Shown: one piece after another, positions 1 to 17,950 of the stretch | Layout of the letters: each line of letters begins with the position of its first letter | Numbering within the stretch: the first letter of the stretch is position 1 | Sequence record: SRR20825006_3046 | DNA length: 36,619 bases | Direction: 5' to 3' (one strand) | The notes under the pieces: generated by a model | Database searches by the model: none | What the model saw: the letters and a program-made list of their open reading frames with translations, nothing else | Told to the model about the DNA's origin: nothing | Made by a program: the position numbers and the translations under genes

Positions 1-33
1 CATCATAGCAAATGTTCGTGCCTCTCAATGCAT

Positions 34-61
34 AAGGTTGCCGTTTTGGCGGCCTTTTTTT
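34..61 (+). terminator. Rho-independent terminator of an upstream unit outside the window
   Basis: AAGGTTGCC-GTTTT-GGCGGCCTT hairpin followed by a T run. Confidence 0.6.
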
Positions 62-160
62 CATGATAGGCACAAAATTTAAATCTGCTGCGAAATCCGG
101 AAAAACAGCCATTTATCGTGTGGCATTGGCAGTTCTCGAAAAAAAAAACAACAGAAGCGT

Positions 161-186
161 CGCCAGTTTTATCGCCTGCACGCGTG
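161..186 (+). promoter_or_regulatory. Putative ECF sigma promoter of the fliC operon
   Basis: CGCCAGTTTT-N11-GCGTG, same boxes and spacing as 5268-5293; CGT in the downstream box is typical of ECF -10 elements; A-tract upstream. Confidence 0.65.
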
Positions 187-262
187 GATATGGATACCGG
201 CCCGATTTTGGGTCGGTTGGCAGGTATGTCAGTTCCATTCTTCCATATAGGAGATCGCGAAA

Positions 263-1081
263 ATGGCGAGCATTAACACGAATATGTCGGCGACCCTTGC
301 GGTGTCGAACCTCAACAAGACCACAGATGAAATGACTTCCGTTTTGACGGCGATGTCGAGCGGCAAGTCCATCAACTCTGCATCGGACGATGCGGCGGGT
401 CTTGCGGTTTATACTGCGATGTCTGTTGATTATGCGGCATGGGAACAGGCTGGCGATAACGCTGAAGTCGCAACGGCTATTCTTGAAACGGCCGATGGCG
501 GTCTTTCGGAAATCGGTGATATTCTTGAACGTATGTACGAACTGGCATCCGAAGCTTCTTCGGGTTCGGTGACCGATACGGAACGTGCCTATCTTGACAG
601 CGAGTATCAGGAACTGGTTGCGCAGGTTGATTCCATCGTCAACTCGACGACCTATTTCGATACGTCGCTGTTAGACGGCACCTATAACCAGAACTTCACC
701 GTTTCTGCGGACTCGAGCGTTGCAGCAATCGCTGTTGACTTGTCCGCACAGGCCTATGACGCCGCAAGCCTTGGTCTTGCCGGTGATCTGACATCGGCGA
801 CCAACGCGGCAACCGAGCTGACGGCAATCGAAGCGGCGGTTACCACCGTTTCGTCCGGGCGTGCAACGGTCGGTGCACTGATGTCGCGGTTTGATTATGC
901 GTCCGGTAACATCGAAACCGCCCAGACCAACCTTGAAGCCGCAATGAGCGTCTATATGGATGCCGATATCGCGGAACTGAGTGCGGAGCAGACCGAACTT
1001 GGCGTGAAGATGGACTCTGCCATCCAAGCCCTGTCGGTTTCCAACGAAAATCTCGAGAAGCTCTCGCGGTTGCTGAGCTAA
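263..1081 (+). CDS. fliC: Minimal, highly acidic flagellin (272 aa)
   Basis: N-terminal SINTN and SSGKSINSASDDAAGLA, ERMYELA, C-terminal RATVGALMSRF and DADIAE; AGGAG RBS; about 40 D/E vs 9 K/R. Confidence 0.93.
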   Translation: MASINTNMSATLAVSNLNKTTDEMTSVLTAMSSGKSINSASDDAAGLAVYTAMSVDYAAWEQAGDNAEVATAILETADGGLSEIGDILERMYELASEASSGSVTDTERAYLDSEYQELVAQVDSIVNSTTYFDTSLLDGTYNQNFTVSADSSVAAIAVDLSAQAYDAASLGLAGDLTSATNAATELTAIEAAVTTVSSGRATVGALMSRFDYASGNIETAQTNLEAAMSVYMDADIAELSAEQTELGVKMDSAIQALSVSNENLEKLSRLLS

Positions 1082-1087
1082 CTCGTT

Positions 1088-1126
1088 GCGGGACCGCCCG
1101 GTGTTAGAGCCGCCGGGTGGTCCTGT
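1088..1126 (+). promoter_or_regulatory. Strong intercistronic hairpin after fliC (mRNA stabiliser or partial terminator)
   Basis: GCGGGACCGCCCGGTG-7 nt loop-CGCCGGGTGGTCCTGT with no clear U tract. Confidence 0.55.
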
Positions 1127-1159
1127 TGCTTCTGGTATCGCGTGACAAGGGAGGGCTGA

Positions 1160-2848
1160 ATGTCGACAGTGAACTCATCTACATCGTCGAGCTATGTATC
1201 GTCGTCCTACGTTTCAGGTCTGACAGACCTTGATACCGCAGAGCTGGTTGAAGACGCCTATAACGCCAAGATGGAAGTTGCCGACACCATCGAGGCAGAG
1301 GTTGATGAGCTTGAACTTGAAATTGCGGCGTTTGAAGATTTACAGGACCTGCTTGAGGCGCTGGAAGATGCGGCAGAGGCCCTGACCGCCTCGGCCGAGC
1401 TTGACAGTTTGCGCGATGATGTCTGGGTTGGAAAATCGGCCTATCTGTCATCGTCGGATGCCAATACGACCGCATCGGATGTGCTGGGTGTGCTCGTCGA
1501 TGATGAGGCCACTGTTGGCAGTTATACGATTGAAATCAAACAGATGGCGACTGCCCACAGACTGGGCGGAGATACTTATGCCGATGCGTCGTCAGCGGCA
1601 GGCCTCTCAGGTACTCTCAGTCTTGTGGCCGGGGATGATTATACTGCGACGGATATCGAGATATCCGATGACATGTCGCTTGACGATATTGCCGATGCCA
1701 TTAATGACCAGAGTAGTGCAACCGGGGTACGTGCCAGTGTGCTTCAGGTTTCCGATGATGAATATATGCTGGTGCTATCGGCTATTGATACCGGGCAGGA
1801 GATCACCTTTGATACCGATGGAGCAGACACAACGCTGGCTGCGTCTTTGGGGTTTATCAATGACGATGGCGGTTATGCGAACGAGCTGGTGGCAGCTGAT
1901 CAGGCGATTTTCTCTGTCGACGGGGTAGAGGTAACCCGAAGCAGCAATACGGTTGATGACGTGATTGATGGTGTGACGCTTTATCTGTATGCGGAGGAAG
2001 AAGGTACTGAGATTACGCTTGAAATCGATGAGGACGCGAGTTCGGTCTATGACGCGATTGAGGCTTTTGTCGACGCCTATAACGAGTTGCGCAGCTTTGT
2101 TATTACCAATCAATCCTATGAAGCCGGTCAGGGCGCGGATGAGGATGCGGTTTTGTTTGGTGATTCACTTTTAAGCTCGGCTGTTTCATCGGTTTATGAC
2201 GCACTGTCCTTCACCGAAAACAGCGAAACTTATGCGTCCCTATCGTCAATCGGCATTACCTTTGATGAAAGCAACTATCTGGTGATCGATTCCGAGACAC
2301 TTGAAGATGCTCTGGTGTCGAATTTTGACGAGGTTGCCGATCTGTTTTCACTGTCGACCGATACCGGTTCGGACACCCTGCTGGTTTCCGAAGCCGATGG
2401 TACCTATACCGGGACCTTTACCATCGACATTGAGGTTGATGCCGAAGGCAATATCACGTCGGGCAGTGTCGGCGGTGATTCCAGTCTGTTCACCATCAGC
2501 GGCAACAATATCATCGGGGCTGAAGGGTCGGTCTATGAAGGTGTCGAGCTGTATTTTGGCGGGGACAGTTCCGAAAGTGTCGATGTCACGATTTCTAGCG
2601 GCCTTGGCAATGAGATGGTCAAGGCGCTCGACAAATATACCAACAGTTCGGATGGCCTGATTTCCGCCCGTATCGAGCGGTTGGAAGAACAAACCACCAA
2701 TCTTGAGGATGAAATCGAAGATGTGACGACCGCCGCCGAGGCTTATGCCGAAGATCTGACGGAACGCTACTCGGCGCTGGAAACCAAGATGTATCAGCTT
2801 CAGCTGCTGCGCGAACAACTTGAAGCCTTGTGGGGTGATGATGAATAA
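1160..2848 (+). CDS. fliD: Flagellar filament cap protein, highly acidic
   Basis: SGLTDLDTAELV N-terminal motif, TRSSNTVDDVIDGVTL, FVDAYNEL, C-terminal RYSALETKMYQL; directly after fliC. Confidence 0.9.
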   Translation: MSTVNSSTSSSYVSSSYVSGLTDLDTAELVEDAYNAKMEVADTIEAEVDELELEIAAFEDLQDLLEALEDAAEALTASAELDSLRDDVWVGKSAYLSSSDANTTASDVLGVLVDDEATVGSYTIEIKQMATAHRLGGDTYADASSAAGLSGTLSLVAGDDYTATDIEISDDMSLDDIADAINDQSSATGVRASVLQVSDDEYMLVLSAIDTGQEITFDTDGADTTLAASLGFINDDGGYANELVAADQAIFSVDGVEVTRSSNTVDDVIDGVTLYLYAEEEGTEITLEIDEDASSVYDAIEAFVDAYNELRSFVITNQSYEAGQGADEDAVLFGDSLLSSAVSSVYDALSFTENSETYASLSSIGITFDESNYLVIDSETLEDALVSNFDEVADLFSLSTDTGSDTLLVSEADGTYTGTFTIDIEVDAEGNITSGSVGGDSSLFTISGNNIIGAEGSVYEGVELYFGGDSSESVDVTISSGLGNEMVKALDKYTNSSDGLISARIERLEEQTTNLEDEIEDVTTAAEAYAEDLTERYSALETKMYQLQLLREQLEALWGDDE

Positions 2849-3311
2849 GCATTCGCAGACGACTGCACAGCAGGCCTATCGTTTTGCCGGTGCAAGCGCA
2901 CAATACAACAATGCATTGCGCACGACGTCACCGGTTGCGATGATGGTGATCGCCATCACCCGTACGCGCCAGCATCTGCGGGCGGCCAAACAATACCGTG
3001 AAGAAAAGCATTTCGATCTTGAACGTCAGGAAAAGGCAATTGCGGTCAATCGATTGCGAGCATTGCAGGCAGTTGTCTCGCCGAAGTCGGCCCCTGAACT
3101 GTCTCGTGATCTGTATGCGTTCTATGCGCGCATGATCAAACTTCTGGCTCGAAACGGGCGGAAAACACCGCTTGAGGAACGTTACGAAATCGTGGACCGG
3201 AACCTCGAAACACTGGCAAAACAGTGGGAGAGTTTCAAATCGGTAAATTCGCAGGCCGCTGGACCGCAACAGGTTCGTGGAACACGTCATATCGTGGAAC
3301 AGGTGTTGTGA
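2838..3311 (+). CDS. fliS: FliS-like flagellin chaperone, divergent and basic
   Basis: TSPVAMM, ELSRDLYAFY and LETLAKQW match the FliS helix pattern; overlaps the fliD stop; start at ATG 2838 or 2841. Confidence 0.7.
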   Translation: MMNKHSQTTAQQAYRFAGASAQYNNALRTTSPVAMMVIAITRTRQHLRAAKQYREEKHFDLERQEKAIAVNRLRALQAVVSPKSAPELSRDLYAFYARMIKLLARNGRKTPLEERYEIVDRNLETLAKQWESFKSVNSQAAGPQQVRGTRHIVEQVL

Positions 3312-3342
3312 GGGGCAGTTGAGTGTAGGCATCCGTCGCGAA

Positions 3343-3930
3343 ATGACAACGGGATCGCAAGCCTCCGAGGCGGCAAGACAGAATGCCGCCCTGTCGGAAC
3401 TTGCTGATCAGGATCTTGTGGCCCTGATGGTTCGGGGTGACAAGCACGCCTATCGCGTGCTTGTCGAGCGATACTATCGCGGGATTATCGGGATTGCGCG
3501 ACGTATGGGTCTTACAGGCAGTGACGCGGAAGATGCGACGCAGGATGTTTTCGTCCGGGTATGGTTGCATCGGGAAAAATGGCGTCCGGAAGGAGCCAGC
3601 TTCAAAACCTGGCTGTATCGGGTTGCGGTAAACCGGGTGATTGATCTGAAACGCAAACCGCAATTCGTCGATGGCAGTGATCTTGAAAACATGCCTGATG
3701 AGGCGATTTCACCAGTTGAACAGCTGGCACAACATCAGGAATTCAGGCGGCTTCGAACTGCGATCAAGCTGCTGTCGGAGCAACAACAAATTGCCATCAA
3801 TCTGTTTTATGATCGTGAACTGTCCAATCAAGAAGCGGCTGCTATTATGGGGGTTTCCGTCAATGCGATGGAATCATTGTTAAAAAGGGCACGAAAGCGA
3901 CTGCGTGAAGAGTTGAAAGCAATGGGATAG
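3343..3930 (+). CDS. ECF sigma-70 family sigma factor
   Basis: Region 2 DAEDATQDVF and FKTWLYRVAVN; region 4 LSNQEAAAIMGVSVNAMESLLKRAR; start uncertain (ATG 3343 or TTG 3319). Confidence 0.92.
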   Translation: MTTGSQASEAARQNAALSELADQDLVALMVRGDKHAYRVLVERYYRGIIGIARRMGLTGSDAEDATQDVFVRVWLHREKWRPEGASFKTWLYRVAVNRVIDLKRKPQFVDGSDLENMPDEAISPVEQLAQHQEFRRLRTAIKLLSEQQQIAINLFYDRELSNQEAAAIMGVSVNAMESLLKRARKRLREELKAMG

Positions 3931-3989
3931 ATCGTTAACTTCAGTTGCGTTCGAACAGGTAGGTTCGTCCTAGGAAAAAGCGGTGTGCT

Positions 3990-4673
3990 GTGAAGATCGA
4001 GAAATTTGAAGAATTGCTGGATCAGTACGGGTGGGACATTACATCCTGGCCGGAGCCGCTTCGCCATGAGGCCAACATTCTTGTTGCCCGGAATGATGAA
4101 GCAGCTGAATTGCTGAAATCCCTGAAATCTGTTGAAGATTTGCTGGCCGATGATCCCTTGCCGTTGGGCAAACATCGCGCAATTGACGATATTTTTGCGG
4201 TGATTGAGGCAGAAGAAAATGCGGCAGAGCCGCGACGTCATGACGCGAAAAGCGATGCCTTTTCCTTTAACGACGCGCGCCGCGGACGTGGTGCAGAGCT
4301 GCGGGCGGCCGAACATCAGGGTGATTCTGTTCCACAGCGTCAGACTTATCCGTCCGAAAGGACCGCCAATCCGGTTGGTAGCGTCACAGGACCAACTGAC
4401 CCGGCTCTTGCAATATCAGGTATCCGGGTGAAGTCATCGCAGGCATTGTTGCGGTATTCAGCGACCTTTGCTTCTGCCTTCGGGATGGTGCTTTGTGTGA
4501 TGTTCGGTTTTGTGGTTGGCGTTGTATTTACGTCCGAACAGGAAATCCAAACCAACGCCCAAGCAATCGAAATGCCGATGATGCAGGCTCTGGAAAATCA
4601 TGTTTTTGATGAGGCCTCGCAAGGCATGGGAATCGGTTCGAATGGTGCAAACACGCAAACAGGGCGGGAATGA
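3990..4673 (+). CDS. Putative single-pass anti-sigma factor
   Basis: N-terminal FEELLDQYGWDITSWP pattern seen in small genes following alphaproteobacterial ECFs; one TM helix (AFGMVLCVMFGFVVGVVF); directly after the ECF gene. Confidence 0.7.
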   Translation: MKIEKFEELLDQYGWDITSWPEPLRHEANILVARNDEAAELLKSLKSVEDLLADDPLPLGKHRAIDDIFAVIEAEENAAEPRRHDAKSDAFSFNDARRGRGAELRAAEHQGDSVPQRQTYPSERTANPVGSVTGPTDPALAISGIRVKSSQALLRYSATFASAFGMVLCVMFGFVVGVVFTSEQEIQTNAQAIEMPMMQALENHVFDEASQGMGIGSNGANTQTGRE

Positions 4674-5176
4674 TGATTTTAGATGATCGTCGCAAGCCTG
4701 ATGCCACCCGAAGGTTCTTGTGGGCATCGCTTGCTTTGAATCTGTTCCTGATTGGGACAATTGCGGGAAGTATTGCCGCGGGTAGTACGATCCTCCACAG
4801 CTTTTTGGGGGGCTCGCCGCCGATGATTGGTCCGGACAATGGCCCGCCGCCGCCGGTTCGCATGCTTTCAGAAGTACGCGAGAAGCTGAGCCCGGAAGGA
4901 AAGGCCATTTTTGACGCCGAGTTTGCGCCGGTGATGGAAGATTTGATGAAACGTCGTGATGACCTGAAAAAGTTCAGAGAACTGCGCGAGGTTTTGCTGC
5001 GCGACGATGCAACGGATGCCGAAATCCGTGGCGTCTTTGAAAAAATGAAGAACGGTATCGGGGATGATTTTGGTCGTATACTTACGCACATGGCCAATGT
5101 CGCGGTCCAGCTGTCACCCGAAGATCGCGCAGAACTGGCATTGCATCGTCCTGGGCCGCCACCGCCGCCGCAGTAA
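4670..5176 (+). CDS. Membrane-anchored periplasmic heavy-metal-sensor-like protein (Metal_resist / CnrX-ZraP-CpxP-like)
   Basis: WASLALNLFLIG anchor, Pro-rich linker, helical domain with LSPEGK and LSPEDR; ATGA overlap with the anti-sigma gene. Confidence 0.75.
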   Translation: MMILDDRRKPDATRRFLWASLALNLFLIGTIAGSIAAGSTILHSFLGGSPPMIGPDNGPPPPVRMLSEVREKLSPEGKAIFDAEFAPVMEDLMKRRDDLKKFRELREVLLRDDATDAEIRGVFEKMKNGIGDDFGRILTHMANVAVQLSPEDRAELALHRPGPPPPPQ

Positions 5177-5203
5177 CTTTTGCCGGAAACGAGCCTAAGA
5201 CGG

Positions 5204-5230
5204 AAAGGAGTGCAAATGCGCTCCTTTTTT
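5204..5230 (+). terminator. Rho-independent terminator of the fliC-ECF operon
   Basis: AAAGGAGTGCA-AA-TGCGCTCCTTT plus T run. Confidence 0.8.
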
Positions 5231-5267
5231 GTTTTTGGATTTATTTTCTAAAAAAGTGAATTTGCTG

Positions 5268-5293
5268 CGCCAGTTTTTCCGTCCGTCAGCGTG
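5268..5293 (+). promoter_or_regulatory. Putative ECF sigma promoter of the flgD operon
   Basis: CGCCAGTTTT-N11-GCGTG as at 161-186; AT-rich tract upstream. Confidence 0.65.
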
Positions 5294-5338
5294 AAACGAA
5301 CATAAGACCCGTTCAATGTTCGCTTCATGGAGGCGGTG

Positions 5339-6034
5339 ATGAGTTACCTCAGCGGCCTGACATACGATAGCCTGACGGCTTCGACGACCTCGTCGTCAAG
5401 CACATCAACTTCGTCTAGTACGAGCGAGAGCTCTACCTACGAAACCTATATGACGCTGATGCTGACGACGCTTCAGAATCAGGACCCGACCGATCCCGAA
5501 GATGTGTCAGAGATGACCACGCAGCTGGCGACCTTCGAGCAGCTTGAACTGGCTGAAAATAACAATGCATTGCTGTCGGATCTTTCGGAATCGCTTCTGA
5601 CCCTACAGGGGGTGATCGATAACAGCGCCGCGCAGTCCTATCTTGGTACCGATGTTGTCGCAGTCGGGGATACCGCCCCGCTCGAAGATGGCGAGGCCGA
5701 ATGGTATTTTGTCCTTGATGATGATGCCTCGAATGTCAGCATCGAAATCACCGATGAAGATGGAAATGTTGTCTACGAGACGACGGTGACCGGTGCCGAG
5801 GGTGCGAATAATTTCACATGGGACGGGGTGACGGACGGCGGAAGCACGCTGAGCTCGGGGACCTATACCCTTTCGGTCGAAGCGACCGATTCTGACGGAA
5901 ATTCCGTTGATTCTGAAATTCTCATGACCGGTGTGGTGTCGGCAATCGACCTGACCGGCGACGAAGCCGTGCTGTATGTCAACGGGGTCGATATCGCGAT
6001 CTCGGACGTTCAGGGCACGCAAACAGTTTCCTGA
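5339..6034 (+). CDS. flgD: Hook capping protein with no basic residues
   Basis: LQNQDPTDP, QLATFEQLE, FTWDG, SGTYT; GGAGG RBS favours ATG 5339. Confidence 0.92.
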   Translation: MSYLSGLTYDSLTASTTSSSSTSTSSSTSESSTYETYMTLMLTTLQNQDPTDPEDVSEMTTQLATFEQLELAENNNALLSDLSESLLTLQGVIDNSAAQSYLGTDVVAVGDTAPLEDGEAEWYFVLDDDASNVSIEITDEDGNVVYETTVTGAEGANNFTWDGVTDGGSTLSSGTYTLSVEATDSDGNSVDSEILMTGVVSAIDLTGDEAVLYVNGVDIAISDVQGTQTVS

Positions 6035-6051
6035 AGCGAAGGATCAAAGCC

Positions 6052-7347
6052 ATGAGCTTAAGCAGTGCACTGAATTCCGCCGTTTTGGGGCTGAATGCGC
6101 AATCGACGTCGCTTGGTGTGATTTCGGGCAATATCAGTAACAGCGAGACTGTCGGTTACAAGGATAGTTCGACATCCTTCTCGTCGCTGGTGACCACGCC
6201 CGGCTCGACGACGACTGGCTATTCCAATGGTGTGACGACATCGACCCAAACCAATATCAGCTCGCAAGGCCTGATTCAGGCAGATGATACTGCGACCAGT
6301 CTGGCGATATCGGGTGATGGTTTCTTTGTCGTGACCGATGGCAATGGTGACGTTTATTACACGCGTGCCGGTGATTTTGACACTGATGCCGAAGGCAATC
6401 TGGTTAACAGTTCTGGCTATTATCTTATGGGATACGCGCTTGACGATGACGGTAATCCGGCAAGCGGCACCGTTCCGACCAGCACATCGGCCCTGACGAC
6501 GATCAATCTTGAAGATCTGACCGGAACGGCAGAAGCTTCGACCGAAGTTTCGATGGTAGCAAACCTTCCGGCAGATGCGGCAGTTGGCGATACATTTTCC
6601 GTTGATGTCGAAGTGTTTGACAGTCTCGGTACCAGTCATACGGTAACCTATAACTACGAGAAAACGGCCGAGAATGAGTGGGAGCTGACTTATTCTGATC
6701 CGGTTCTGACCTCGGACGGAACGACGGTTACGGGTACGTCCTCGGGTGGTCCATTGACGATTACCTTTGACGGGGACGGCAATCTTTCGGCGATTACGGA
6801 TACCAGCGGCACTGATGTGACCGACAATGCAACTCTGACCATCACCGGCTGGACCACCGGGGCTAATGATAGCTCTATCGTTTCCGATCTTGGAACGGCC
6901 GGCGATGACGACGGCTTGCAGCAATTTGCGTCCGACGAAGAAGATGGCGACATGACGCTGTATTCGGTTGACCAGAACGGTTCGAATTACAGCGAGATCG
7001 CCGAGATATCGATCTCGGACGATGGGGTTGTTTCGGTGACCTATGAAAACGGCGAGAGCGAACCGGTCTATCAGATCGTACTGGCCGATTTTGCCAACGC
7101 GGATGGCCTGACCGCTTATAGCGATACTGTCTACAAGGAAAGCAACACATCGGGCAGCTATGTGCTGAAAACCCCGGGTGATGGCGGAACCGGGACGCTG
7201 GCGGATTATTCGCTGGAAAGTTCCACCGTCGATACTACCAGCCAGTTTTCCAAAATGATCATCGCACAGCAGGCCTATTCGGCGGCGGCACAGGTCGTTT
7301 CAACGACCAGCGATATGTATGACACGCTCATTTCGGCAGTGAACTAA
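6052..7347 (+). CDS. flgE: Flagellar hook protein, highly acidic
   Basis: GNISNSETVGYK, LAISGDGFF, YTRAGDF, FDSLG, LESSTVD and MIIAQQAY. Confidence 0.93.
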   Translation: MSLSSALNSAVLGLNAQSTSLGVISGNISNSETVGYKDSSTSFSSLVTTPGSTTTGYSNGVTTSTQTNISSQGLIQADDTATSLAISGDGFFVVTDGNGDVYYTRAGDFDTDAEGNLVNSSGYYLMGYALDDDGNPASGTVPTSTSALTTINLEDLTGTAEASTEVSMVANLPADAAVGDTFSVDVEVFDSLGTSHTVTYNYEKTAENEWELTYSDPVLTSDGTTVTGTSSGGPLTITFDGDGNLSAITDTSGTDVTDNATLTITGWTTGANDSSIVSDLGTAGDDDGLQQFASDEEDGDMTLYSVDQNGSNYSEIAEISISDDGVVSVTYENGESEPVYQIVLADFANADGLTAYSDTVYKESNTSGSYVLKTPGDGGTGTLADYSLESSTVDTTSQFSKMIIAQQAYSAAAQVVSTTSDMYDTLISAVN

Positions 7348-7373
7348 GTCGTGAAGCAAGGGGATTTCAGGTT

Positions 7374-7796
7374 ATGACAGCAATGGCTTTGGCACTTCCA
7401 AACGATAGCGACGCCGTCACGCAGATCATTGCGCGTCTCGAAGAACTTCTCGATGTCGAATGGCGGATCCTTGAACAGGGTCAGTATGACCTTTTGCCCG
7501 ATATCACGGCGGAAAAGACTCTGCTGGAAGATGCGCTGAAGTCCGAACTGCGTGCTCAGAAACAGGCCGATCCGGAAAATCCGCTTGCTGGCCAGATCAT
7601 CAATTTTGATTTGGTGCGCAGTCTTCGCAATAAGCTTGATCGCAATAATATCCGCCTTATGGCCAAGCGCGATGCCTGCCTGAAACGTATTCGTGCCGGT
7701 TGGGCCGCAACGGCAGGTGATCAGGCAACGTCATATGACCGCGATGGTGATCTGCATGGCAAATCAACGCGCGCCATTCTGAATTTGAAGATGTAA
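7374..7796 (+). CDS. FlgN-like chaperone
   Basis: 140 aa helical protein with LEELLDVE, EKTLL, RNNIRL and SYDRDG; immediately before flgK-flgL. Confidence 0.55.
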   Translation: MTAMALALPNDSDAVTQIIARLEELLDVEWRILEQGQYDLLPDITAEKTLLEDALKSELRAQKQADPENPLAGQIINFDLVRSLRNKLDRNNIRLMAKRDACLKRIRAGWAATAGDQATSYDRDGDLHGKSTRAILNLKM

Positions 7797-7827
7797 CTGC
7801 ACTTTTGACAACTGACAGGTCAGAAAA

Positions 7828-9549
7828 ATGTCGATCCGTGCTGCCCAATCTGCTGCGTTCAGCGCATTGCAATCAAGCCAGACCGGGATTGCTGTATCTT
7901 CGAACAACATCGCGAATGCGTCGGTCGAAGGATACACAACCAAGTCGACCAGTCTGGCCAGCAATATCAGCGGTGGTTCGGCTGTGGGCGTTTCGGTCAC
8001 TTCGGTGGGATCAAGCGTTGACAGTTATCTGATCAAAGCGATTAACGAAGCCGCGTCGGAAAGTGGGTATGCATCCGTGTTTGCCGACCCGCTTGAGATT
8101 GTTTCAAGCAATTTCGGATCGGTTGGAGATGATGACGCAATTTCTACCCTGATCACCGACCTTGAAACATCAATCGCATCCCTTGCTGTCAGTGCAGACA
8201 GCCAGTCGGCCAAGTCGCTTGTTCTGACCGATGCAGAGCAGATTGCAAGCGAGCTTAACAGCCTTTCGGCAAGTGTTCAGGATCAGCGTGCGTCTGCCGA
8301 TCAGTCGATCGAAGATACCGTTGATCAGATCAATTCTTTGTTGAATGAGATTCAGTCCTACAACGAGCAGCTTACCGGAACGGATGGTACAACGCTGGCT
8401 TCCAGCGAGATTGAAGATGCGCGTGCGGTCGCCATCCAGGAACTGTCTGAACTGGTTGATGTGTCCTATTACACCAATTCATCCAACCAGACGCAGATCT
8501 ATATCGGCGGGACGCTTGTGGTTGGTAGTCAGGTGCAGGAACTTGAATATAACGCGGTTGGTACGGTAAATGCCGACACGGTGTTTGGCGAAATCACCGT
8601 GAATGGTAATTCGATCACGGATGATGTCAGCGGTGGCGCGCTGGGAGGACTGATTGAACTTCGTGATGAAACCCTACCTGCCATTCAGGATGAACTTGAT
8701 GCCCTTGCCGTGGCTCTGATGGACAGCGTCAATGCCGTGACCAATCTTGGCACGTCCTATCCCGGCCCGAACGAGCTAACATCAAGCGAGACAACGGCGC
8801 TGACAGATTCCTTTTCCGGAACCGGCACCGTTCGGTTGGTGGCGACGGATGAGGATGGCAATGCGGTTGAAATTCTTGATATCGATCTGACTACGGTGAC
8901 GACGGTTCAAGATCTGGTTGATCAGATCAATGGATCAACAAACATGAGTGCTACGGTAAATGCGGATGGCACTTTAACCATCGCCAGCACGGATGATGAT
9001 TACGGTGTATCGATCATCAATATGGATGCCGAGATTGGTGCGGATGCGCAGGGATTGTCGGATTATTTCGGTCTGAACGACATGTTCACTGGAACCGGTG
9101 CCGATGATATTTCGGTTAATAGCGCGTGGCTGGCCGATTCCAGTCTGGTGCCAACCGGATCGGGATCGGACGACGCGACTCTTGCCGTTGGCGATAGCGT
9201 GATTTCGTCGGGAAGCTCGGATGTGGCCGAGGCATTGGCCAATGTTTTTGATACCAATGTCAGTTTCGATGCGGCCGGGAACCTTGGCAGTACCAAAACG
9301 ACGCTTTCGGATTATGCATCAGAAATACTGTCTGATGTTGCCCAGCAGGCTTCGACTGCCGAAACCAAGGCCAGTGTTGCGAGCACCGCGTTTAGCGATC
9401 TGGTTGAGAGTTTTTCCAATCAATACGGGGTTAATACTGACGAAGAGGCTCTGACATTGGCCAATCTTGAAAGTGCCTACGAAGCGGCCGCAGCGGTCCT
9501 GGAGATCACGCAGTCTCTGATGGACACGTTGCTTGAAGCTGTCCGGTAA
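7828..9549 (+). CDS. flgK: Hook-associated protein 1, highly acidic
   Basis: SNNIANASVEGY, GGALGGLIELRD, GVNTDEE, AYEAAA. Confidence 0.92.
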   Translation: MSIRAAQSAAFSALQSSQTGIAVSSNNIANASVEGYTTKSTSLASNISGGSAVGVSVTSVGSSVDSYLIKAINEAASESGYASVFADPLEIVSSNFGSVGDDDAISTLITDLETSIASLAVSADSQSAKSLVLTDAEQIASELNSLSASVQDQRASADQSIEDTVDQINSLLNEIQSYNEQLTGTDGTTLASSEIEDARAVAIQELSELVDVSYYTNSSNQTQIYIGGTLVVGSQVQELEYNAVGTVNADTVFGEITVNGNSITDDVSGGALGGLIELRDETLPAIQDELDALAVALMDSVNAVTNLGTSYPGPNELTSSETTALTDSFSGTGTVRLVATDEDGNAVEILDIDLTTVTTVQDLVDQINGSTNMSATVNADGTLTIASTDDDYGVSIINMDAEIGADAQGLSDYFGLNDMFTGTGADDISVNSAWLADSSLVPTGSGSDDATLAVGDSVISSGSSDVAEALANVFDTNVSFDAAGNLGSTKTTLSDYASEILSDVAQQASTAETKASVASTAFSDLVESFSNQYGVNTDEEALTLANLESAYEAAAAVLEITQSLMDTLLEAVR

Positions 9550-9561
9550 AGGGTAAAGAAC

Positions 9562-10473
9562 ATGAGAGTTTCGACAGCCGCCATGCAGCAAAATCTGCTG
9601 AATCAGATGCGAAGTGTTCAATCACAACTTACAGATGCAACCAACCAGTCAAGTTCGGGAATGAAAGCGGACTCCTATTCCGGTGTTTCGGATAATTCCT
9701 ATGTCATCAGCACACTAAGCGCGGAAATATCGGAATCGTCTGCCTATGCCGATTTAGCAGAGCAAATTCAAAGCCGGGTCGAAATGTATTATTCGACGCT
9801 GAATGATATGGTCGATCTGATGAGCGATATGCTGGCCGATATTTCGGGCGCACTTAGCACTGGAAGTCCCGATGTTGCCGGGATTAATGAGTCCGCGACG
9901 GCAGCACTTTCCACCATGGAATCTTTGCTTAATACCCAATATGAAGACCGGTATCTGTTTGCCGGGTCGGCCACAAATACGGCACCGGTTTCTGTCGATG
10001 TGGCGGATTATCCGGCCATGACAACGCCCAGTGCAGCCGATACCAGCTATTATTCCGGCAATAGTGATATTGCATCGGCCAAGGTCGCGGATGGCACCAC
10101 CATCGAATATGGCCTTACCGCCGATCAGGAGCCGTTCGAACAGGCATTGCGGGCGTTGAACCTGACGGCATACGCATCAGCCGATCCGATTGATGAAGCC
10201 GCCCTGACCGAGGCCATGACCCTGATCGAGGGCGCGGTCGAGGGAATTGCAGATCTTCAGACCCAGGTCTCTTTGACCCAAGATGAGCTTGAGGCGATTG
10301 TTGACATGCATACCGACTTCCAACTGACCGCCGAGGGTATCGTGACCGACCTTTCCGAAGTCGACCTGGCCGAGGCCATGGTGAATCTTGAAACCCTGTC
10401 AGTACAGCTTGAGGCATCCTATTCGGTCGCCGGTCAAATCGTTGATATGTCGCTGTTTGAATATTTGCGCTGA
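9562..10473 (+). CDS. flgL: Hook-associated protein 3, highly acidic
   Basis: MRVST, SSGMK, LNTQYEDRYLFAG, VDLAEA, LEASY, SLFEYL. Confidence 0.9.
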   Translation: MRVSTAAMQQNLLNQMRSVQSQLTDATNQSSSGMKADSYSGVSDNSYVISTLSAEISESSAYADLAEQIQSRVEMYYSTLNDMVDLMSDMLADISGALSTGSPDVAGINESATAALSTMESLLNTQYEDRYLFAGSATNTAPVSVDVADYPAMTTPSAADTSYYSGNSDIASAKVADGTTIEYGLTADQEPFEQALRALNLTAYASADPIDEAALTEAMTLIEGAVEGIADLQTQVSLTQDELEAIVDMHTDFQLTAEGIVTDLSEVDLAEAMVNLETLSVQLEASYSVAGQIVDMSLFEYLR

Positions 10474-10676
10474 ATTTACCATATCGGATCTTAGTTTGGT
10501 TGCTGGTTGTGACGGTCGATAAAGGCCTCATACCTGCATGACGCTTGCGAAACGCTTGCAGTTATAGCCGAGCGCCATGAGCTGCCACTCAGCCTTGACA
10601 TTTCTGATGCCGCGCACGTGGAAACGGGTGAAGCCGAGGGGGCGGATCTGATAATGTCGAGTACGGGTTCGGTGGT

Positions 10677-10880
10677 CTATTTTCGTTTCCTGTATTCGGT
10701 TTTTGCTGGGGGCGGCTCGATCTTGCGCGTTTCAAGGAGACGATCTGATCCAGTGTCATCCTTGCAATCCTGTGCCGCCCGGCTTGCGCCAAGCAGGATC
10801 GCGGTTGCGCATAGTCCTGTACCCAAAAGGATCAGGACATGACCGATATGGTGCGAAAGGTTTTGAAAACGCATCATCAT
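10677..10880 (-). CDS. Possible small membrane-anchored protein (67 aa)
   Basis: Co-oriented just downstream of the outer-membrane channel gene; hydrophobic segment VLILLGTGLCATAILLGA; no good RBS. Confidence 0.25.
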   Translation of the reverse strand: MMMRFQNLSHHIGHVLILLGTGLCATAILLGASRAAQDCKDDTGSDRLLETRKIEPPPAKTEYRKRK

Positions 10881-10903
10881 GTTTTTGTGTGTGACAGTTG
10901 CTG

Positions 10904-12340
10904 TCAGGCGGCTGTGGTGTCCGGTGCCGGGTTGGTTTGGGCATTGGCAGGTGTCGCATCGCCGCCCAATGCCTGATAGAGCGTGATCAGGTTGGTAATG
11001 CGATCAAGCTGATTTGAAAGAACAGCTTCTTCGGCGGTGCGTCTGGTTTCCTGCGCGTCCAGCCAATCCTGCATGGCGACTGCACCGGACCGGAACCGGG
11101 TTTCGTAAATCCGTTCGGCATTGCGTGCGGCGTCAAGTGCGGCTTCAAGCCGGGCGGCACGGCGATCATATTGTGTGCGGGCTGAAAGCGCGTTTTCAAC
11201 GTCGCTCATGGCTTCGTAAGCCGTTTGGCGGAATTCGGCGATGGCCTGTTCATATTCGGCTTCGGATACCTTGATATTAAGCTGTCCCTCGTTCCAGTTC
11301 AGGAAAGGCAGGGCAAGGCTGGCGCCCAATGTGCCAATCGGGTTTTGCAACAGATTGCGCAACTGGTCGCTGCTGGTGCCCAATTCCCCCGTCAGGGTCA
11401 GGGTCGGTAGCAAACTGGTTTTGACCGAATTCAAATCCGAAACGCTTTCCTTAAGGCGCAATTCAGCCGCCCGTACGTCCGGGCGACGCGACAGCAATTC
11501 CGATGGCAGACCCGCCGCCACATCGGGCAGGGCACCGGACGGTAATGTCATGCGCGGAATTTCAATATCACCCGGTGCGCGGTCAAACAGGATCGATAGC
11601 GCGTTTTTGGTTTCCGTTAGACTTTGTTCGATCTGGGTATAATCGGCCAACTGGCTTTCAAGGTTCTGGCGGGCTTCGAACAGTTCCAGTGACGATGTCG
11701 AACCGGACGCATATTGAACATCGACCAGATCAAGGGTCTGCTGGGCGTAATCGATACTGGCCTGGGCGATATCCAGGCGTTGCTGATAGTAAACCGCCTG
11801 CCAGTAAAGGGTGGCGGTGGTCCCGATCAGCGATAATGCCGTGCTTTCACGATCTTCAAGGGTCGCCAGTGCTTCCCAGCGGGCGGCATCGTAATCATGG
11901 CCAAGCTTGCCCCAAAGGTCGAGCTCGTAACTGATTCCGGCATTGGTGCCAAAGCTTCGCGTACTGCCATTATCCTCGTCCAGATCGCGCGAAACCGATG
12001 CATCTGCTCCACCGGAGAAATCGGGGTAAAGGTCATCTTCGGCAAGGCCCGCGGTCAATTGTGCCTTGCGGACTTTGATGGTGGCCGCCGCCAGGTCGTT
12101 ATTGCGTTCAAGCGCACGGGCGACAAGTTCATCAAGCTGGTCATCGCCGAAATTCTGCCACCAGTTTTGCGAGGCGGTGATGGTTGCTGCGTTGCTGTTG
12201 TCCGATGCGGTGGCGGCTCCGTTCCAGCCGTTTTCCGACGTAATATCCGGACGGGAATAGCGGGTTTCGTTCAGGCTGCTGCACCCTGCAAGTGCCATCA
12301 TCGAAAGGATGGTTCCGGTCTTTAAAATCCGTGTGATCAT
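10904..12340 (-). CDS. Outer-membrane efflux lipoprotein (NodT/OprM/TolC family)
   Basis: Lipobox ALAGC, WWQNFGD, SYELDLWG, PSELLSRRPDV, LYQALGG. Confidence 0.93.
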   Translation of the reverse strand: MITRILKTGTILSMMALAGCSSLNETRYSRPDITSENGWNGAATASDNSNAATITASQNWWQNFGDDQLDELVARALERNNDLAAATIKVRKAQLTAGLAEDDLYPDFSGGADASVSRDLDEDNGSTRSFGTNAGISYELDLWGKLGHDYDAARWEALATLEDRESTALSLIGTTATLYWQAVYYQQRLDIAQASIDYAQQTLDLVDVQYASGSTSSLELFEARQNLESQLADYTQIEQSLTETKNALSILFDRAPGDIEIPRMTLPSGALPDVAAGLPSELLSRRPDVRAAELRLKESVSDLNSVKTSLLPTLTLTGELGTSSDQLRNLLQNPIGTLGASLALPFLNWNEGQLNIKVSEAEYEQAIAEFRQTAYEAMSDVENALSARTQYDRRAARLEAALDAARNAERIYETRFRSGAVAMQDWLDAQETRRTAEEAVLSNQLDRITNLITLYQALGGDATPANAQTNPAPDTTAA

Positions 12341-12354
12341 TTTTGTATTCTCCG

Positions 12355-14337: not shown

Positions 14338-14339
14338 GA

Positions 14340-15524: not shown

Positions 15525-15640
15525 CGTGCTTTCATGTCCTTGGATGAGACGCGCCCGACGTTGAAAGGCAATTGAGCCGTCGGGCATACCAGACATAGCA
15601 ACCCCTTTGTCAGAACGGGGTGAGGGGGATGAAAATGATC

Positions 15641-15657
15641 TGTAAGGAATGTGTAAA
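15641..15657. promoter_or_regulatory. Tandem direct repeat, likely OmpR/CpxR-family binding site
   Basis: TGTAAG and TGTAAA spaced 11 bp apart in the divergent macA / regulator intergenic region. Confidence 0.55.
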
Positions 15658-15747
15658 GTCTGGCATCCACGCCTTTCGTTAGGCGGTTTAAGCGCTAGAA
15701 TGTCATCATGAACAGGAATTAACCCGCATTTGAAAGACCCGTTGCCC

Positions 15748-17834: not shown

Positions 17835-17938
17835 AGGCTGTCTTATGTTGGTTGGGTATCATACGGAGGAAAGGGCTTGGCAGTAAATAAGTTAGGCTCT
17901 AATGGTGATTGGCGTAGATGAGTATACTTCGGTGCGCG

Positions 17939-17950
17939 TCCCCGCAACCA
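17939..17950 (+). repeat. Initiator tRNA-Met 3'-end fragment, copy 1 (att-like)
   Basis: TCCCCGCAACCA followed by a terminator hairpin; no tRNA body upstream. Confidence 0.55.

What the first reader, a model, noticed from the sequence alone, without database searches (positions are those of the whole stretch)
161..10473. Candidate new system: ECF-controlled, hyperacidic accessory flagellar filament kit with no basal body
Seen: two operons (fliC-fliD-fliS-ECF-antisigma-sensor and flgD-flgE-flgN-like-flgK-flgL), bounded by a terminator on the left and a convergent efflux operon on the right. They encode every part outside the outer membrane plus the chaperones, but no rod, rings, export gate, motor, FliK, FliA/FlgM or FlaF/FlbT. 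Every exported subunit is polyanionic. Known: these subunits need a flagellar type III export apparatus and rod. Inference: the cell swaps the whole external structure (hook to cap) onto the basal body of its main flagellum when a periplasmic signal arrives. The product may be a cation-binding or decoy appendage (metals, cationic peptides, mineral surfaces) or a flagellotropic-phage escape variant rather than an ordinary propeller. I know of no described system with this architecture.
Basis: partly seen in the sequence, partly recalled or inferred. Interest (0 to 1): 0.92.

Follow-up and report, generated by a model that had tools for sequence, protein, structure and literature searches.

The report
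ECF-controlled accessory flagellar hook-filament cluster
This marine Thalassospira bacterium carries a second, sigma-factor-controlled set of genes for every outer part of a flagellum but no second motor; the same kind of cluster was described in Azospirillum in 2025, so it is a real but already known kind of system.

Summary
Window 161-10473 carries two co-directional operons: fliC-fliD-fliS-ECF sigma-anti-sigma-Spy/CnrX-like protein, and flgD-flgE-orf140-flgK-flgL. No basal-body gene lies anywhere in the window.

The organism is a Thalassospira. The 11-gene block keeps the same order in 16 of 37 species genomes of the genus. All 16 have one FlhA. Three checked carriers have one FliF and exactly two extra axial proteins.

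It is not an undescribed architecture. It is a homologue of the Azospirillum brasilense RpoE6/Asf6 cluster (J Bacteriol 2025, PMC12826043). There the ECF drives a small flagellin, FliC2, that enters the polar flagellum. The mapped RpoE6 promoter (CGCCAG-N16-CGTG) occurs exactly twice in the window, in front of fliC and flgD, and is conserved in all 17 Thalassospira loci.

ECF-linked modules of this type occur across Alphaproteobacteria, often beside a single FlhA.

The "hyperacidic" composition is real but is the extreme end of a family-wide trait, so a special polyanionic function is not supported.

Differences from Azospirillum are a membrane-spanning anti-sigma and a periplasmic Spy/CnrX-like partner.

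Still open is whether the alternative hook, junction and cap, and not only the flagellin, are built on the single basal body.

The parts
34..56 (+). Terminator-like hairpin with T run: end of the upstream unit and left boundary of the cluster
   Evidence: 10-bp stem, 5 GC pairs, T-rich tail. Terminator-like hairpins stand at the same position in most of the 17 Thalassospira loci aligned.
161..186 (+). RpoE6-type ECF promoter of the fliC operon: -35 CGCCAG, 16-nt spacer, -10 CGTGGA
   Evidence: The motif occurs twice in the 36.6-kb window against 0.09 expected, and 0 of 100 shuffles gave 2 or more matches. It is conserved upstream of fliC in 17 of 17 Thalassospira loci. It matches the -35/-10 elements mapped by 5'RACE and deletion in A. 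brasilense (PMC12826043).
193..262 (+). Conserved fliC 5' leader with two predicted hairpins and the ribosome-binding site AGGAG
   Evidence: MFE -27.2 kcal/mol, z = -2.06. The blocks TGGCAGGTA.G.CA and TCCA.ATAGGAG are conserved in 17 of 17 loci. No Rfam family matched. Function unknown.
263..1081 (+). fliC: small accessory flagellin (272 aa, D0/D1 only), counterpart of FliC2
   Evidence: Flagellin_N 114.7 bits, Flagellin_C 48.6 bits. Identity is 73-98% in 16 relatives. dN/dS is 0.014-0.09.
1160..2848 (+). fliD: filament cap (562 aa; 22.1% D+E, 2.7% K+R)
2820..3311 (+). fliS: flagellin export chaperone (basic, pI 10.3). The true start is probably a few codons downstream.
   Evidence: PF02561, 32.6 bits against a cut-off of 26.7
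3277..3930 (+). ECF sigma factor, orthologue of RpoE6. The start is uncertain: orthologues begin near 3319-3343.
   Evidence: It is 45% identical over 186 aa (E 5e-50) to the in-cluster ECF of A. brasilense. It is present in 16 of 16 carriers and 0 of 21 non-carriers.
3990..4673 (+). Single-pass membrane anti-sigma factor. The N-terminal ~50 aa are Asf6-like, a TM-like segment lies at residues 163-181, and a short periplasmic tail follows.
   Evidence: 39% identity over 49 aa, E 5e-9, to the Asf6-position ORF. In one search a TM-like segment is present in 17 of 17 orthologues and absent from the Azospirillum ORF. Alignment.
4670..5176 (+). Periplasmic protein of the Spy/CpxP/CnrX type, with an N-terminal TM-like segment in 4 of 5 orthologues checked; candidate signal-input partner of the anti-sigma
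   Evidence: PF13801, 29.9 bits against a cut-off of 29.2. AF2 model, pLDDT 69. The Foldseek top hits are almost all Spy, CpxP, CnrX, NccX or ZraP, with probability up to 0.97 but E-values of 0.16-0.8. N-terminal hydrophobic segment.
5202..5229 (+). Intrinsic terminator (12-bp stem plus T run) ending the fliC-to-sensor operon
   Evidence: A hairpin is conserved at this position in all 17 loci.
5268..5293 (+). RpoE6-type ECF promoter of the flgD operon: CGCCAG-N16-CGTGAA
   Evidence: Conserved upstream of flgD in 17 of 17 Thalassospira loci. Also found upstream of flgD in the Azospirillum and Terasakiella loci.
5327..6034 (+). flgD: hook cap / hook assembly protein (235 aa, no K or R)
6052..7347 (+). 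flgE: accessory hook protein of the alphaproteobacterial 420-430 aa type
   Evidence: NF004242, 453 bits against a cut-off of 365; 45-54% identity to FlgE of Tistlia, Terasakiella, Kiloniella, Roseibium, Azospirillum, Bradyrhizobium and Caulobacter
7374..7796 (+). orf140: conserved three-helix protein in the position of hp2/FlgN; possible junction-protein chaperone, not shown
   Evidence: model pLDDT 71, helices 13-35, 38-65, 78-113. No significant fold or profile match was found. One orthologue hits PF05130 weakly (E 0.01).
7828..9549 (+). flgK: hook-filament junction protein 1 (573 aa, against about 811 aa for the primary FlgK)
9562..10473 (+). flgL: hook-filament junction protein 2

Best explanation
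This is the Thalassospira member of the RpoE6/Asf6-type ECF-controlled accessory flagellar late-gene cluster first characterised in Azospirillum brasilense.

How it is organised. Two operons each start with the RpoE6-type promoter (CGCCAG-N16-CGTG).
- The first operon encodes a small D0/D1-only flagellin, the filament cap, FliS, the ECF itself (positive feedback), a single-pass membrane anti-sigma and a periplasmic Spy/CnrX-like protein.
- The second operon encodes the hook cap, the hook, a small helical protein and the two junction proteins.

How it most likely works. The cluster has no export gate, rod, rings or motor. Its products therefore have to be exported by the cell's only flagellar type III apparatus and built onto the primary (polar) basal body.
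- Shown here: the anatomy, the promoters, the dependence on a single FlhA/FliF in relatives, purifying selection, and orthology to RpoE6/Asf6.
- Shown in Azospirillum by others: the ECF drives fliC2-fliD-fliS, the anti-sigma binds the ECF and opposes it, FliC2 enters the polar filament, and it dominates the filament when the anti-sigma is deleted.
- Inferred: an envelope or periplasmic cue releases the ECF from the membrane anti-sigma. Flagella assembled afterwards then carry the alternative filament. Because flgD-flgE-flgK-flgL sit behind the same promoter type, those flagella probably also carry an alternative hook and junction.
For: - Gene content.
- Conservation: same 11 genes in the same order in 16 of 16 carrier genomes. 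All 11 genes have dN/dS of 0.014-0.27 and no stops against four relatives (one gene in one of the four comparisons gave a script error).
- ECF: 45% identity over 186 aa (E 5e-50) to the A. brasilense in-cluster ECF.
- Anti-sigma: the N-terminal domain is 39% identical over 49 aa (E 5e-9) to the Asf6-position ORF.
- Promoter: the motif occurs exactly twice in the window, at 161 and 5268, against 0.09 expected, and 0 of 100 shuffles gave 2 or more. It is conserved in 17 of 17 loci before both fliC and flgD. It is identical in its -35 element, spacing and the first four bases of its -10 element to the promoter mapped in A. brasilense (PMC12826043, Results). It is also present before flgD and fliC in Azospirillum and Terasakiella loci.
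- Single basal body: one FlhA in 16 of 16 carriers. One FliF, and only two extra axial proteins, in three carriers.
- Distance from the primary flagellar genes: the cluster lies about 0.7-0.8 Mb from FlhA in five complete genomes.
- ECF orthologue: present in 16 of 16 carriers and 0 of 21 non-carriers.
- Same pattern elsewhere: module plus a single FlhA and a second FlgK in Terasakiella, Roseibium suaedae, Magnetospirillum sulfuroxidans, Roseospirillum parvum and Dongia. In Kiloniella and Blastochloris the module's FlgK is the only FlgK found, which suggests the module can supply the junction for a basal body encoded elsewhere.
Against: - The window's own genome is not held, so the single basal body is shown only in relatives. 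The closest carriers have proteins 81-98% identical.
- No experiment exists for Thalassospira. Two literature searches found nothing on it.
- In Azospirillum only the flagellin was traced to the polar filament. The accessory hook, hook cap and junction were not studied. Delta-fliC2 had no swimming defect (abstract).
- The accessory set is of the alphaproteobacterial 420-430-aa FlgE type, while the primary set differs strongly (FlgE 569 aa, FlgK about 811 aa, 30-34% identity). Compatibility of the accessory hook with the primary rod is therefore unproven.
- The strict motif was found before fliC in only 12 of 67 non-Thalassospira loci and before flgD in only 15 of 67.
- The signal is unknown. 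The model of the periplasmic protein gives only non-significant Foldseek E-values.
- RNA-library contigs cover parts of the cluster but also cover its flanks.
Confidence: 0.8

Rival explanations
1. First reader's functional reading. The kit builds a specialised polyanionic appendage on the main basal body, such as a cation- or mineral-binding structure, a decoy for cationic peptides, or a phage-escape variant, rather than an ordinary propeller.
For: - The six exported proteins have K+R of 0-3.3% and a net charge of -11 to -19 per 100 aa. That is about twice the charge of the primary set of the closest carrier, which is -6 to -8.
- The window's FliC is more acidic than all 50 outgroup homologues.
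- A candidate extra regulon member in relatives is an equally K/R-poor EF-hand (Ca-binding) protein. It carries the same promoter motif and is present in 16 of 16 carriers against 3 of 21 non-carriers.
Against: - The bias is a family trait. Eighty-seven FlgE homologues from other genera average 2.6% K+R and a net charge of -9.3, ranging down to -14.1.
- For five of the six proteins, 1-9 outgroup homologues are as acidic or more so.
- All subunits keep the standard terminal polymerisation domains.
- In Azospirillum the homologous flagellin is a component of a working polar flagellum (PMC12826043, abstract and Discussion).
Confidence: 0.1
2. The cluster belongs to an ordinary second (lateral-type) flagellar system whose basal-body genes lie elsewhere in the window's own genome.
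For: - The flagellin gives sub-threshold hits to NCBIfam lateral-flagellin models.
- FlgE relatives occur in Azospirillum and Bradyrhizobium, which have two flagellar systems.
- The window's own genome could not be inspected.
- One non-carrier Thalassospira genome (G010) does have two FlhA.
Against: - Sixteen of 16 carrier species have a single FlhA.
- Three carriers have a single FliF and no extra rod proteins.
- Azospirillum sp. A26 has 2 FlhA but 3 FlgK, so the module is a supernumerary partial set there too.
Confidence: 0.04
3. The cluster is a decaying or silent remnant of a lost alpha-type flagellum and has no present function.
For: - It is patchy in the genus (16 of 37 species).
- It is absent from the nearest held genome.
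- No basal body of its own type is present.
Against: - All 11 ORFs are intact in 17 loci, with dN/dS of 0.014-0.27.
- Promoters, terminators and the leader are conserved.
- Twelve of 16 loci sit at the same chromosomal site.
- The Azospirillum homologue is expressed and its product is assembled (PMC12826043).
- Contigs from RNA libraries of three studies cover parts of the cluster (weak).
Confidence: 0.03
4. The products are exported through the flagellar apparatus but act mainly as secreted proteins, for example in signalling, adhesion or matrix, without forming a hook and filament.
For: - Flagellar type III systems can secrete non-structural substrates.
- The co-occurring EF-hand protein has no Sec-type signal by eye and has a disordered S/T-rich N-terminus.
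Against: - A complete and stoichiometrically coherent assembly set (hook cap, hook, two junction proteins, flagellin, filament cap, FliS) is conserved together.
- Assembly of the flagellin was shown in Azospirillum (PMC12826043).
Confidence: 0.03

Closest known systems
[quoted passage not shown]
   Same: - Same flagellar gene set plus an ECF sigma and an anti-sigma.
- ECF 45% identical.
- Anti-sigma N-terminal domain 39% identical.
- Small D0/D1-only flagellin.
- Same promoter elements, CGCCAG-N16-CGTG.
- The ECF lies in the flagellin operon, so it feeds back on itself.
- No basal-body genes in the cluster.
   Different: - Gene order: here the fliC operon comes first and the ECF triad sits between the two operons.
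- The anti-sigma here has a TM-like segment and a periplasmic tail in 17 of 17 orthologues. The Azospirillum ORF is about 99 aa and has none.
- A Spy/CnrX-like periplasmic protein follows the anti-sigma here. In Azospirillum such a protein is encoded in the separate RpoE8 operon.
- Thalassospira carriers have one flagellar system (one FlhA). Azospirillum has two.
Complete secondary (lateral) flagellar systems, e.g. Laf of Vibrio parahaemolyticus/Aeromonas, the lateral system of Bradyrhizobium, Fla2 of Rhodobacter sphaeroides (recalled, not from a call)
   Same: A second, differently regulated set of hook, junction, filament and cap genes in one genome. The FlgE type is shared with alphaproteobacterial systems.
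   Different: Those systems encode their own export gate, rod, rings and motor. Here no second FlhA, FliF or rod protein exists in carriers.
CnrYXH / NccYXH ECF signalling of Cupriavidus metallidurans
   Same: A three-part layout of ECF sigma, single-pass anti-sigma and a membrane-anchored periplasmic protein of the CnrX/Spy/CpxP fold. NccX and CnrXs are among the best structural matches, with TM-scores of 0.45-0.62 normalised to the target.
   Different: - No significant sequence match to any solved CnrX, Spy or CpxP.
- No invariant histidine among 15 orthologues, so the His-rich Ni/Co site of CnrX (recalled) is not kept.
- The regulon is flagellar rather than metal efflux.
FliA (sigma-28)/FlgM control of late flagellar genes
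   Same: A dedicated sigma and anti-sigma pair controls flagellin, cap and junction genes.
   Different: - The sigma is an ECF (regions 2 and 4 only).
- The anti-sigma is membrane-anchored rather than a secreted FlgM.
- The hook genes are also behind this promoter type, which sigma-28 regulons do not do (recalled).

Membership tests
RpoE6/Asf6-type ECF-controlled accessory flagellar cluster | An ECF sigma factor orthologous to RpoE6 is encoded inside the flagellar cluster | tested here: met
   45% identity over 186 aa, E 5e-50, to the in-cluster ECF of A. brasilense HAMBI_3172. An ECF homologue stands beside the module in 63 of the 73 non-Thalassospira loci.
RpoE6/Asf6-type ECF-controlled accessory flagellar cluster | An Asf6-like anti-sigma is encoded directly downstream of the ECF | tested here: met
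   The N-terminal 49 aa are 39% identical, E 5e-9. The rest of the protein (linker, TM-like segment, periplasmic tail) has no counterpart in Asf6.
RpoE6/Asf6-type ECF-controlled accessory flagellar cluster | Gene set flgD, flgE, a small hypothetical protein, flgK, flgL, small fliC, fliD, fliS, with no basal-body genes | tested here: met
RpoE6/Asf6-type ECF-controlled accessory flagellar cluster | RpoE6 promoter (-35 CGCCAG, 16 nt, -10 CGTGAG) upstream of the flagellin gene | tested here: met
   CGCCAG-N16-CGTGGA at 161-186, 77 nt before the fliC ATG, and CGCCAG-N16-CGTGAA at 5268-5293 before flgD. Conserved in 17 of 17 loci. The chance expectation is 0.09 per window. The reference motif is from PMC12826043.
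RpoE6/Asf6-type ECF-controlled accessory flagellar cluster | ECF-dependent expression, and incorporation of the small flagellin into the primary flagellum | not testable with these tools
   Only weak indirect data exist: contigs from RNA libraries of three studies cover parts of the cluster and also its flanks.
Complete secondary/lateral flagellar system | Its own export gate (second FlhA), MS ring (second FliF) and rod proteins | tested here: not met
   One FlhA in 16 of 16 carriers. One FliF in 3 of 3 carriers. Seven Flg_bbr_C proteins in carriers against 5 in non-carriers, the two extra being the accessory FlgE and FlgK. The window's own genome is not held.
CnrYXH-type metal-sensing ECF module | A periplasmic CnrX-fold sensor with a conserved metal-binding site | tested here: inconclusive
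   PF13801 scores 29.9 bits against a cut-off of 29.2. Foldseek gives CnrXs, NccX, Spy and CpxP at probability 0.77-0.97 but E-values of 0.16-0.8, from a model of pLDDT 69. There is no invariant His in 15 orthologues. The CnrX ligand set is recalled and comes from no call.
FlgN family (PF05130) for orf140 | Sequence or fold similarity to FlgN | tested here: inconclusive
   The window protein has no Pfam hit to FlgN. One of two further orthologues scanned gives E 0.01. hhalign against the primary FlgN-like protein gives probability 1.65%. The three-helix model has no significant fold hit, and FliT and FliS chaperones appear only among weak matches.
FliS (PF02561) for ORF 2820-3311 | Match above the Pfam gathering score | tested here: met
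   32.6 bits against a cut-off of 26.7. This is much weaker than the primary FliS of a relative, which scores 118.7 bits.

The most novel reading that the evidence does not exclude
On a periplasmic or envelope cue sensed through the Spy/CnrX-like protein and the membrane anti-sigma, Thalassospira rebuilds the entire extracellular flagellum on its single basal body. That means an alternative hook, junction, filament and cap, and not only a minor flagellin. Many other alphaproteobacteria with the module and one FlhA would do the same. The regulon would extend to unlinked genes, namely an acidic EF-hand protein and in some species a TPR-sulfotransferase, that decorate or accompany the alternative structure. 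This would be the first case of a signal-controlled exchange of the hook itself.
Probability: 0.3. Interest if true: 0.75.

Novelty: new variant of a known kind. Interest (0 to 1): 0.5.

Why it matters
The published work on this kind of cluster followed only the flagellin. It did not comment on the cluster being a complete hook-to-cap kit without a basal body.

This analysis adds four points:
- In Thalassospira both operons, the hook operon included, carry the experimentally defined RpoE6-type promoter.
- Carriers have one export gate, one MS ring and no extra rod.
- The module beside a single FlhA recurs in at least five other genera.
- One lineage has wired the module to a membrane anti-sigma with a periplasmic partner.

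This makes a concrete question testable in culturable, non-pathogenic marine bacteria: can one basal body carry two alternative hooks and filaments under sigma-factor control, and what signal chooses between them?

It also corrects the idea that the extreme acidity marks a special function. The acidity is a family-wide compositional trait.

Tried and rejected
- Own genome: not held, so all genome-wide counts come from relatives.
- Nearest genome G001 lacks the cluster. Only a 30-nt flgE match was found.
- Spy/CnrX-like protein against the PDB by sequence, as a single sequence and as a profile: nothing meaningful, best E 0.17-0.47 to unrelated proteins.
- orf140: profile against the PDB gave nothing meaningful. 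hhalign against the primary FlgN-like protein gave probability 1.65%. Foldseek gave no match with E <= 0.001.
- Complex prediction of the periplasmic protein (residues 56-168) with the anti-sigma C-terminal part (residues 160-227): verdict 'no answer', score 0.01. This is not evidence either way.
- Rfam scan of 1-11000 at E <= 1: no match.
- Sigma-70 promoter scan: 8 sites against 8.8 expected, so uninformative.
- The conserved TGGCAGG block in the fliC leader was considered as a sigma-54 site and rejected by eye. The GG-N10-GC spacing does not fit, and the block lies downstream of the ECF -10 element.
- RNA evidence: contigs of four RNA-library runs from three studies cover parts of the cluster at 95-99% identity, but they also cover MacAB-TolC, the two-component genes and the FGGY kinase. 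Contigs cannot show starts or strand, so this is not counted as proof of transcription. Uncovered bins, such as fliC in X1 and X3, mean nothing.
- The strict promoter pattern was absent upstream of fliC and flgD in most Roseibium, Bradyrhizobium, Caulobacter and Magnetospirillum loci. Whether these use a diverged motif was not pursued.
- An early impression that the flanks of the block differ between species was wrong. Twelve of 16 loci share both flanks.
- Supplementary files of PMC12826043 (Fig. S1, S2, S4) were not seen. They may hold the ECF alignment and the Azospirillum promoter alignment.

Full report
**1. What is there**

ORF calling and Pfam/NCBIfam scans confirm eleven co-directional genes between 263 and 10473:
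- fliC, 272 aa, with only the N- and C-terminal flagellin domains
- fliD
- a weak but above-threshold fliS
- an ECF sigma factor
- a 227-aa ORF with no family
- a 168-aa protein that just passes PF13801 (29.9 bits against a cut-off of 29.2)
- flgD
- flgE (NF004242, 453 bits against a cut-off of 365)
- a 140-aa ORF with no family
- flgK
- flgL

Terminator-like hairpins lie at 34-56 and at 5202-5229. The second splits the block into two operons.

To the right, a TolC-MacB-membrane fusion protein operon converges on flgL. An OmpR-type regulator and a histidine kinase follow it.

The scanned ORFs in the rest of the window encode sugar/polyol metabolism and transport. No basal-body, motor, FliK, FliA or FlgM gene was found among the window ORFs scanned.

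**2. Organism and distribution**

The window's own genome is not held. Source names for identical or near-identical FlgE proteins, and named loci, place it in Thalassospira.

The nearest held genome, G001, lacks the cluster. It matches window 18268-29121 at 95% identity.

All 37 species genomes of the family, which is a single genus, have a primary FlgK of about 811 aa that is 30-34% identical to the accessory one. Sixteen of the 37 also have an orthologue of the accessory FlgK at 66-94% identity.

In all 16 carriers the same eleven genes stand in the same order. Twelve of the 16 loci share both flanks, so they sit at one chromosomal site. The window's right flank, MacAB-TolC, is shared with none of them. 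It reappears only in G027, on the other side of the block.

All eleven genes are under purifying selection, with dN/dS of 0.014-0.27 against four relatives and no internal stops.

**3. Is there a second basal body?**

No, at least not in relatives.
- Every one of the 16 carriers has exactly one FHIPEP/FlhA match. The only genome with two full copies, G010, is a non-carrier.
- Three carriers (G009, G005, G033) have one FliF and seven proteins with the Flg_bbr_C domain.
- Two non-carriers (G001, G006) have one FliF and five such proteins.
- The two extra proteins in carriers are the accessory FlgE and FlgK, inside the cluster.
- In five complete genomes the cluster lies about 0.7-0.8 Mb from flhA.

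The ECF orthologue is present in 16 of 16 carriers, each time inside the cluster. It is found in 0 of 21 non-carriers at E <= 1e-25.

**4. It is a known kind**

A full-text search found Gupta et al., J Bacteriol 2025 (PMC12826043). I read the abstract, Results parts 1-2 and the Discussion.

[quoted passage not shown] The paper reports the following:
- RpoE6 is an ECF sigma factor.
- A promoter upstream of fliC2 was mapped by 5'RACE and deletions: -35 CGCCAG, 16 nt, -10 CGTGAG. It drives fliC2-fliD-fliS-rpoE6-asf6.
- Asf6 binds RpoE6 and opposes it.
- FliC2 is a small D0/D1-only flagellin that enters the polar flagellum.
- In the asf6 deletion mutant the filament is likely almost only FliC2, and it is thinner.
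- Synteny is noted in Rhodopseudomonas, Bradyrhizobium and Magnetospirillum.
- The role of the homologues elsewhere is stated to be undescribed.
- The paper does not discuss the accessory hook or the lack of a basal-body set.

Two further searches found nothing on Thalassospira and no other paper on this RpoE6.

**5. Membership tests**

ECF. The window's ECF is 45% identical over 186 aa (E 5e-50) to the in-cluster ECF of an A. brasilense locus.

Anti-sigma. The first 49 residues of orf227 are 39% identical (E 5e-9) to the ORF in the Asf6 position.

Promoter. Aligning the regions upstream of fliC and flgD from the window and the 16 relatives shows one shared conserved motif, GCGCCAGTTT...N...CGTG(G/A)A.
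- The pattern CGCCAG-N16-CGTG occurs exactly twice in the 36.6-kb window, at 161-186 and at 5268-5293.
- The chance expectation is 0.09, and 0 of 100 shuffles gave two matches.
- The first site is 77 nt before the fliC ATG. It coincides with the start coordinate of the finding.
- The same pattern precedes flgD and fliC in Azospirillum loci. A third copy lies between flgE and flgK there.
- With a 17-nt spacer it precedes flgD and fliC in Terasakiella.
- The strict pattern was found before fliC in only 12 of 67 non-Thalassospira loci and before flgD in only 15 of 67. The motif is either lineage-restricted or diverged elsewhere.

**6. The module is widespread**

A scan with a FlgE alignment returned 80 named loci. 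In most of them, tblastn with the window proteins finds an ECF homologue plus fliC, fliD, flgD, flgE, flgK and flgL together. The genera include Terasakiella, Kiloniella, Roseibium/Labrenzia, Magnetospirillum, Azospirillum, Bradyrhizobium, Rhodopseudomonas, Blastochloris, Caulobacter, Dongia and Micavibrio.

Counts in ten of these genomes:

| Genome | FlhA (FHIPEP) | FlgK |
|---|---|---|
| Terasakiella | 1 | 2 |
| Roseibium suaedae | 1 | 2 |
| Magnetospirillum sulfuroxidans | 1 | 2 |
| Roseospirillum parvum | 1 | 2 |
| Dongia | 1 | 2 |
| Kiloniella | 1 | 1 |
| Blastochloris sulfoviridis | 1 | 1 |
| Caulobacter hibisci | 2 | 2 |
| Azospirillum sp. A26 | 2 | 3 |
| Bradyrhizobium guangxiense | 3 loci | 4 loci |

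A supernumerary external kit on a single export gate is therefore common. In two genomes the module's FlgK is the only FlgK found.

**7. The acidity**

Net charge and basic-residue content compare as follows.
- The window's six exported proteins have a net charge of -11 to -19 per 100 aa and K+R of 0-3.3%.
- The primary set of the closest carrier has -6 to -8 per 100 aa and K+R of 4.4-7.5%.
- The 87 FlgE homologues from other genera average K+R 2.6% (range 1.4-5.0) and net charge -9.3 (down to -14.1).
- Over 50-73 homologous modules, the window lies inside the range for five of six proteins.
- FliC is the most acidic of 50. FliD is matched or exceeded by 5 of 64, FlgD by 9 of 58, FlgE by 5 of 73, FlgK by 1 of 54 and FlgL by 2 of 67.

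The bias is real. It is the extreme end of a family-wide trait, so it does not argue by itself for a cation-binding or decoy function.

**8. What differs from Azospirillum**

Anti-sigma. All 17 Thalassospira anti-sigmas have one TM-like hydrophobic segment and a short conserved periplasmic stretch. The Azospirillum ORF has none.

Periplasmic partner. The next gene overlaps the anti-sigma stop. It encodes a protein with an N-terminal hydrophobic segment in 4 of 5 orthologues checked.
- The AlphaFold model has pLDDT 69.
- Its best PDB matches are almost all Spy, CpxP, CnrX, NccX or ZraP. Foldseek probability reaches 0.97 and target-normalised TM-scores reach 0.62. E-values are only 0.16-0.8.
- Sequence searches of the PDB found nothing.
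- No histidine is invariant among 15 orthologues, so a CnrX-like metal site is not supported.

The layout resembles CnrH-CnrY-CnrX. It suggests a periplasmic input, but the signal is unknown. A complex prediction gave no answer.

orf140 is a conserved three-helix protein. Its assignment as FlgN remains unproven.

**9. Mechanism**

Shown:
- anatomy
- promoters
- orthology
- selection
- dependence on a single export gate in relatives

Taken from the Azospirillum paper:
- ECF-driven expression
- antagonism by the anti-sigma
- assembly of the small flagellin into the polar filament

Inferred:
- Release of the ECF from the membrane anti-sigma switches on both operons, with positive feedback because the ECF sits in the first operon.
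- The products leave through the primary type III apparatus.
- Flagella assembled afterwards carry the alternative filament and, probably, the alternative hook and junction.
- An existing hook cannot be exchanged, so any hook swap needs new assembly.

**10. Verdict**

The finding is real and well observed, and its testable predictions hold in relatives. It is a new variant, with membrane and periplasmic input, of a kind of system published in December 2025. The polyanionic-function idea is not supported.

The remaining open point is of moderate to high interest for flagellar biology: whether one basal body carries two alternative hooks under sigma-factor control.

Noticed in passing
L149:612-1373 (G009:C1:609311-610069); L154:487-1215 (G033); not in the window: An unlinked gene for an EF-hand protein of about 250 aa has the same composition as the kit (D+E 17-19%, K+R 1.2-1.6%) and no obvious Sec signal. 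It is preceded by the same CGCCAG-N16-CGTG motif in 4 of 5 complete Thalassospira genomes. It is present in 16 of 16 cluster carriers and 3 of 21 non-carriers (G021, G036, G037). A homologue lies within 4 kb of the module in one other locus (L089). It is a candidate extra member of the ECF regulon.
   Followed up: partly
L152:533-2428 (G011:C1:1970032-1971924); L153:2086-3984(-); L151:401-2287: A TPR-plus-sulfotransferase protein of about 631 aa is preceded by the same promoter motif in three genomes, with differing spacer sequences. Orthologues above 50% identity occur in 8 of 16 carriers and 1 of 21 non-carriers (G029). Paralogues stand in tandem arrays. It might modify flagellar proteins; this was not tested.
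   Followed up: partly
window 10904-17834: A MacB-type ABC efflux set (TolC, MacB, membrane fusion protein) plus an OmpR/histidine-kinase pair adjoins the kit. MacB/MFP/TolC homologues at about 42-68% identity also adjoin the module in five loci of other lineages (L082, L084, L095, L135, L143) and in Thalassospira G027 (L060). This recurrent neighbourhood is unexplained.
   Followed up: partly
window 193-262: The fliC leader is highly conserved, with two predicted hairpins. One exposes AGGUA in its loop, and its stem varies between G-U and G-C. The ribosome-binding site follows. No Rfam family matched. It may be a site of post-transcriptional control of the flagellin.
   Followed up: partly
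window 1-18267 versus 18268-29121: The left 18 kb (kit, efflux genes, two-component system) has no counterpart in the nearest held genome G001. The next 10.9 kb is 95% identical to G001:C4. A 164-nt piece (window about 17941-18104) matches G001:C4 about 10 kb away from that block. The region is therefore a variable segment in this strain.
   Followed up: partly
G039 (Kiloniella, L078) and G045 (Blastochloris sulfoviridis, L113): In these two genomes the FlgK of the ECF-linked module is the only FlgK found, beside one FlhA. There the module appears to be the primary late-gene set. One is a MAG, so it may be incomplete.
   Followed up: no
L119, L123, L125, L131, L133, L137, L142, L146 (Azospirillum loci), about 11.6 kb: A third copy of the RpoE6-type motif lies between flgE and flgK in eight Azospirillum loci. 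It suggests a separate ECF promoter for hp2-flgK-flgL there. Thalassospira has none at that place.
   Followed up: no
G010:C12:24683-26680: One Thalassospira genome that lacks the accessory kit has a second full-length FlhA (758 bits). This may be a true second flagellar or type III system in that species.
   Followed up: no
window 3541-5186: One contig from an RNA library (run X3) covers the ECF, anti-sigma and Spy-like genes. It ends at 5186 with adapter sequence, 10 nt after the stop codon and just before the terminator hairpin at 5202. This is a weak hint of the operon's 3' end.
   Followed up: no
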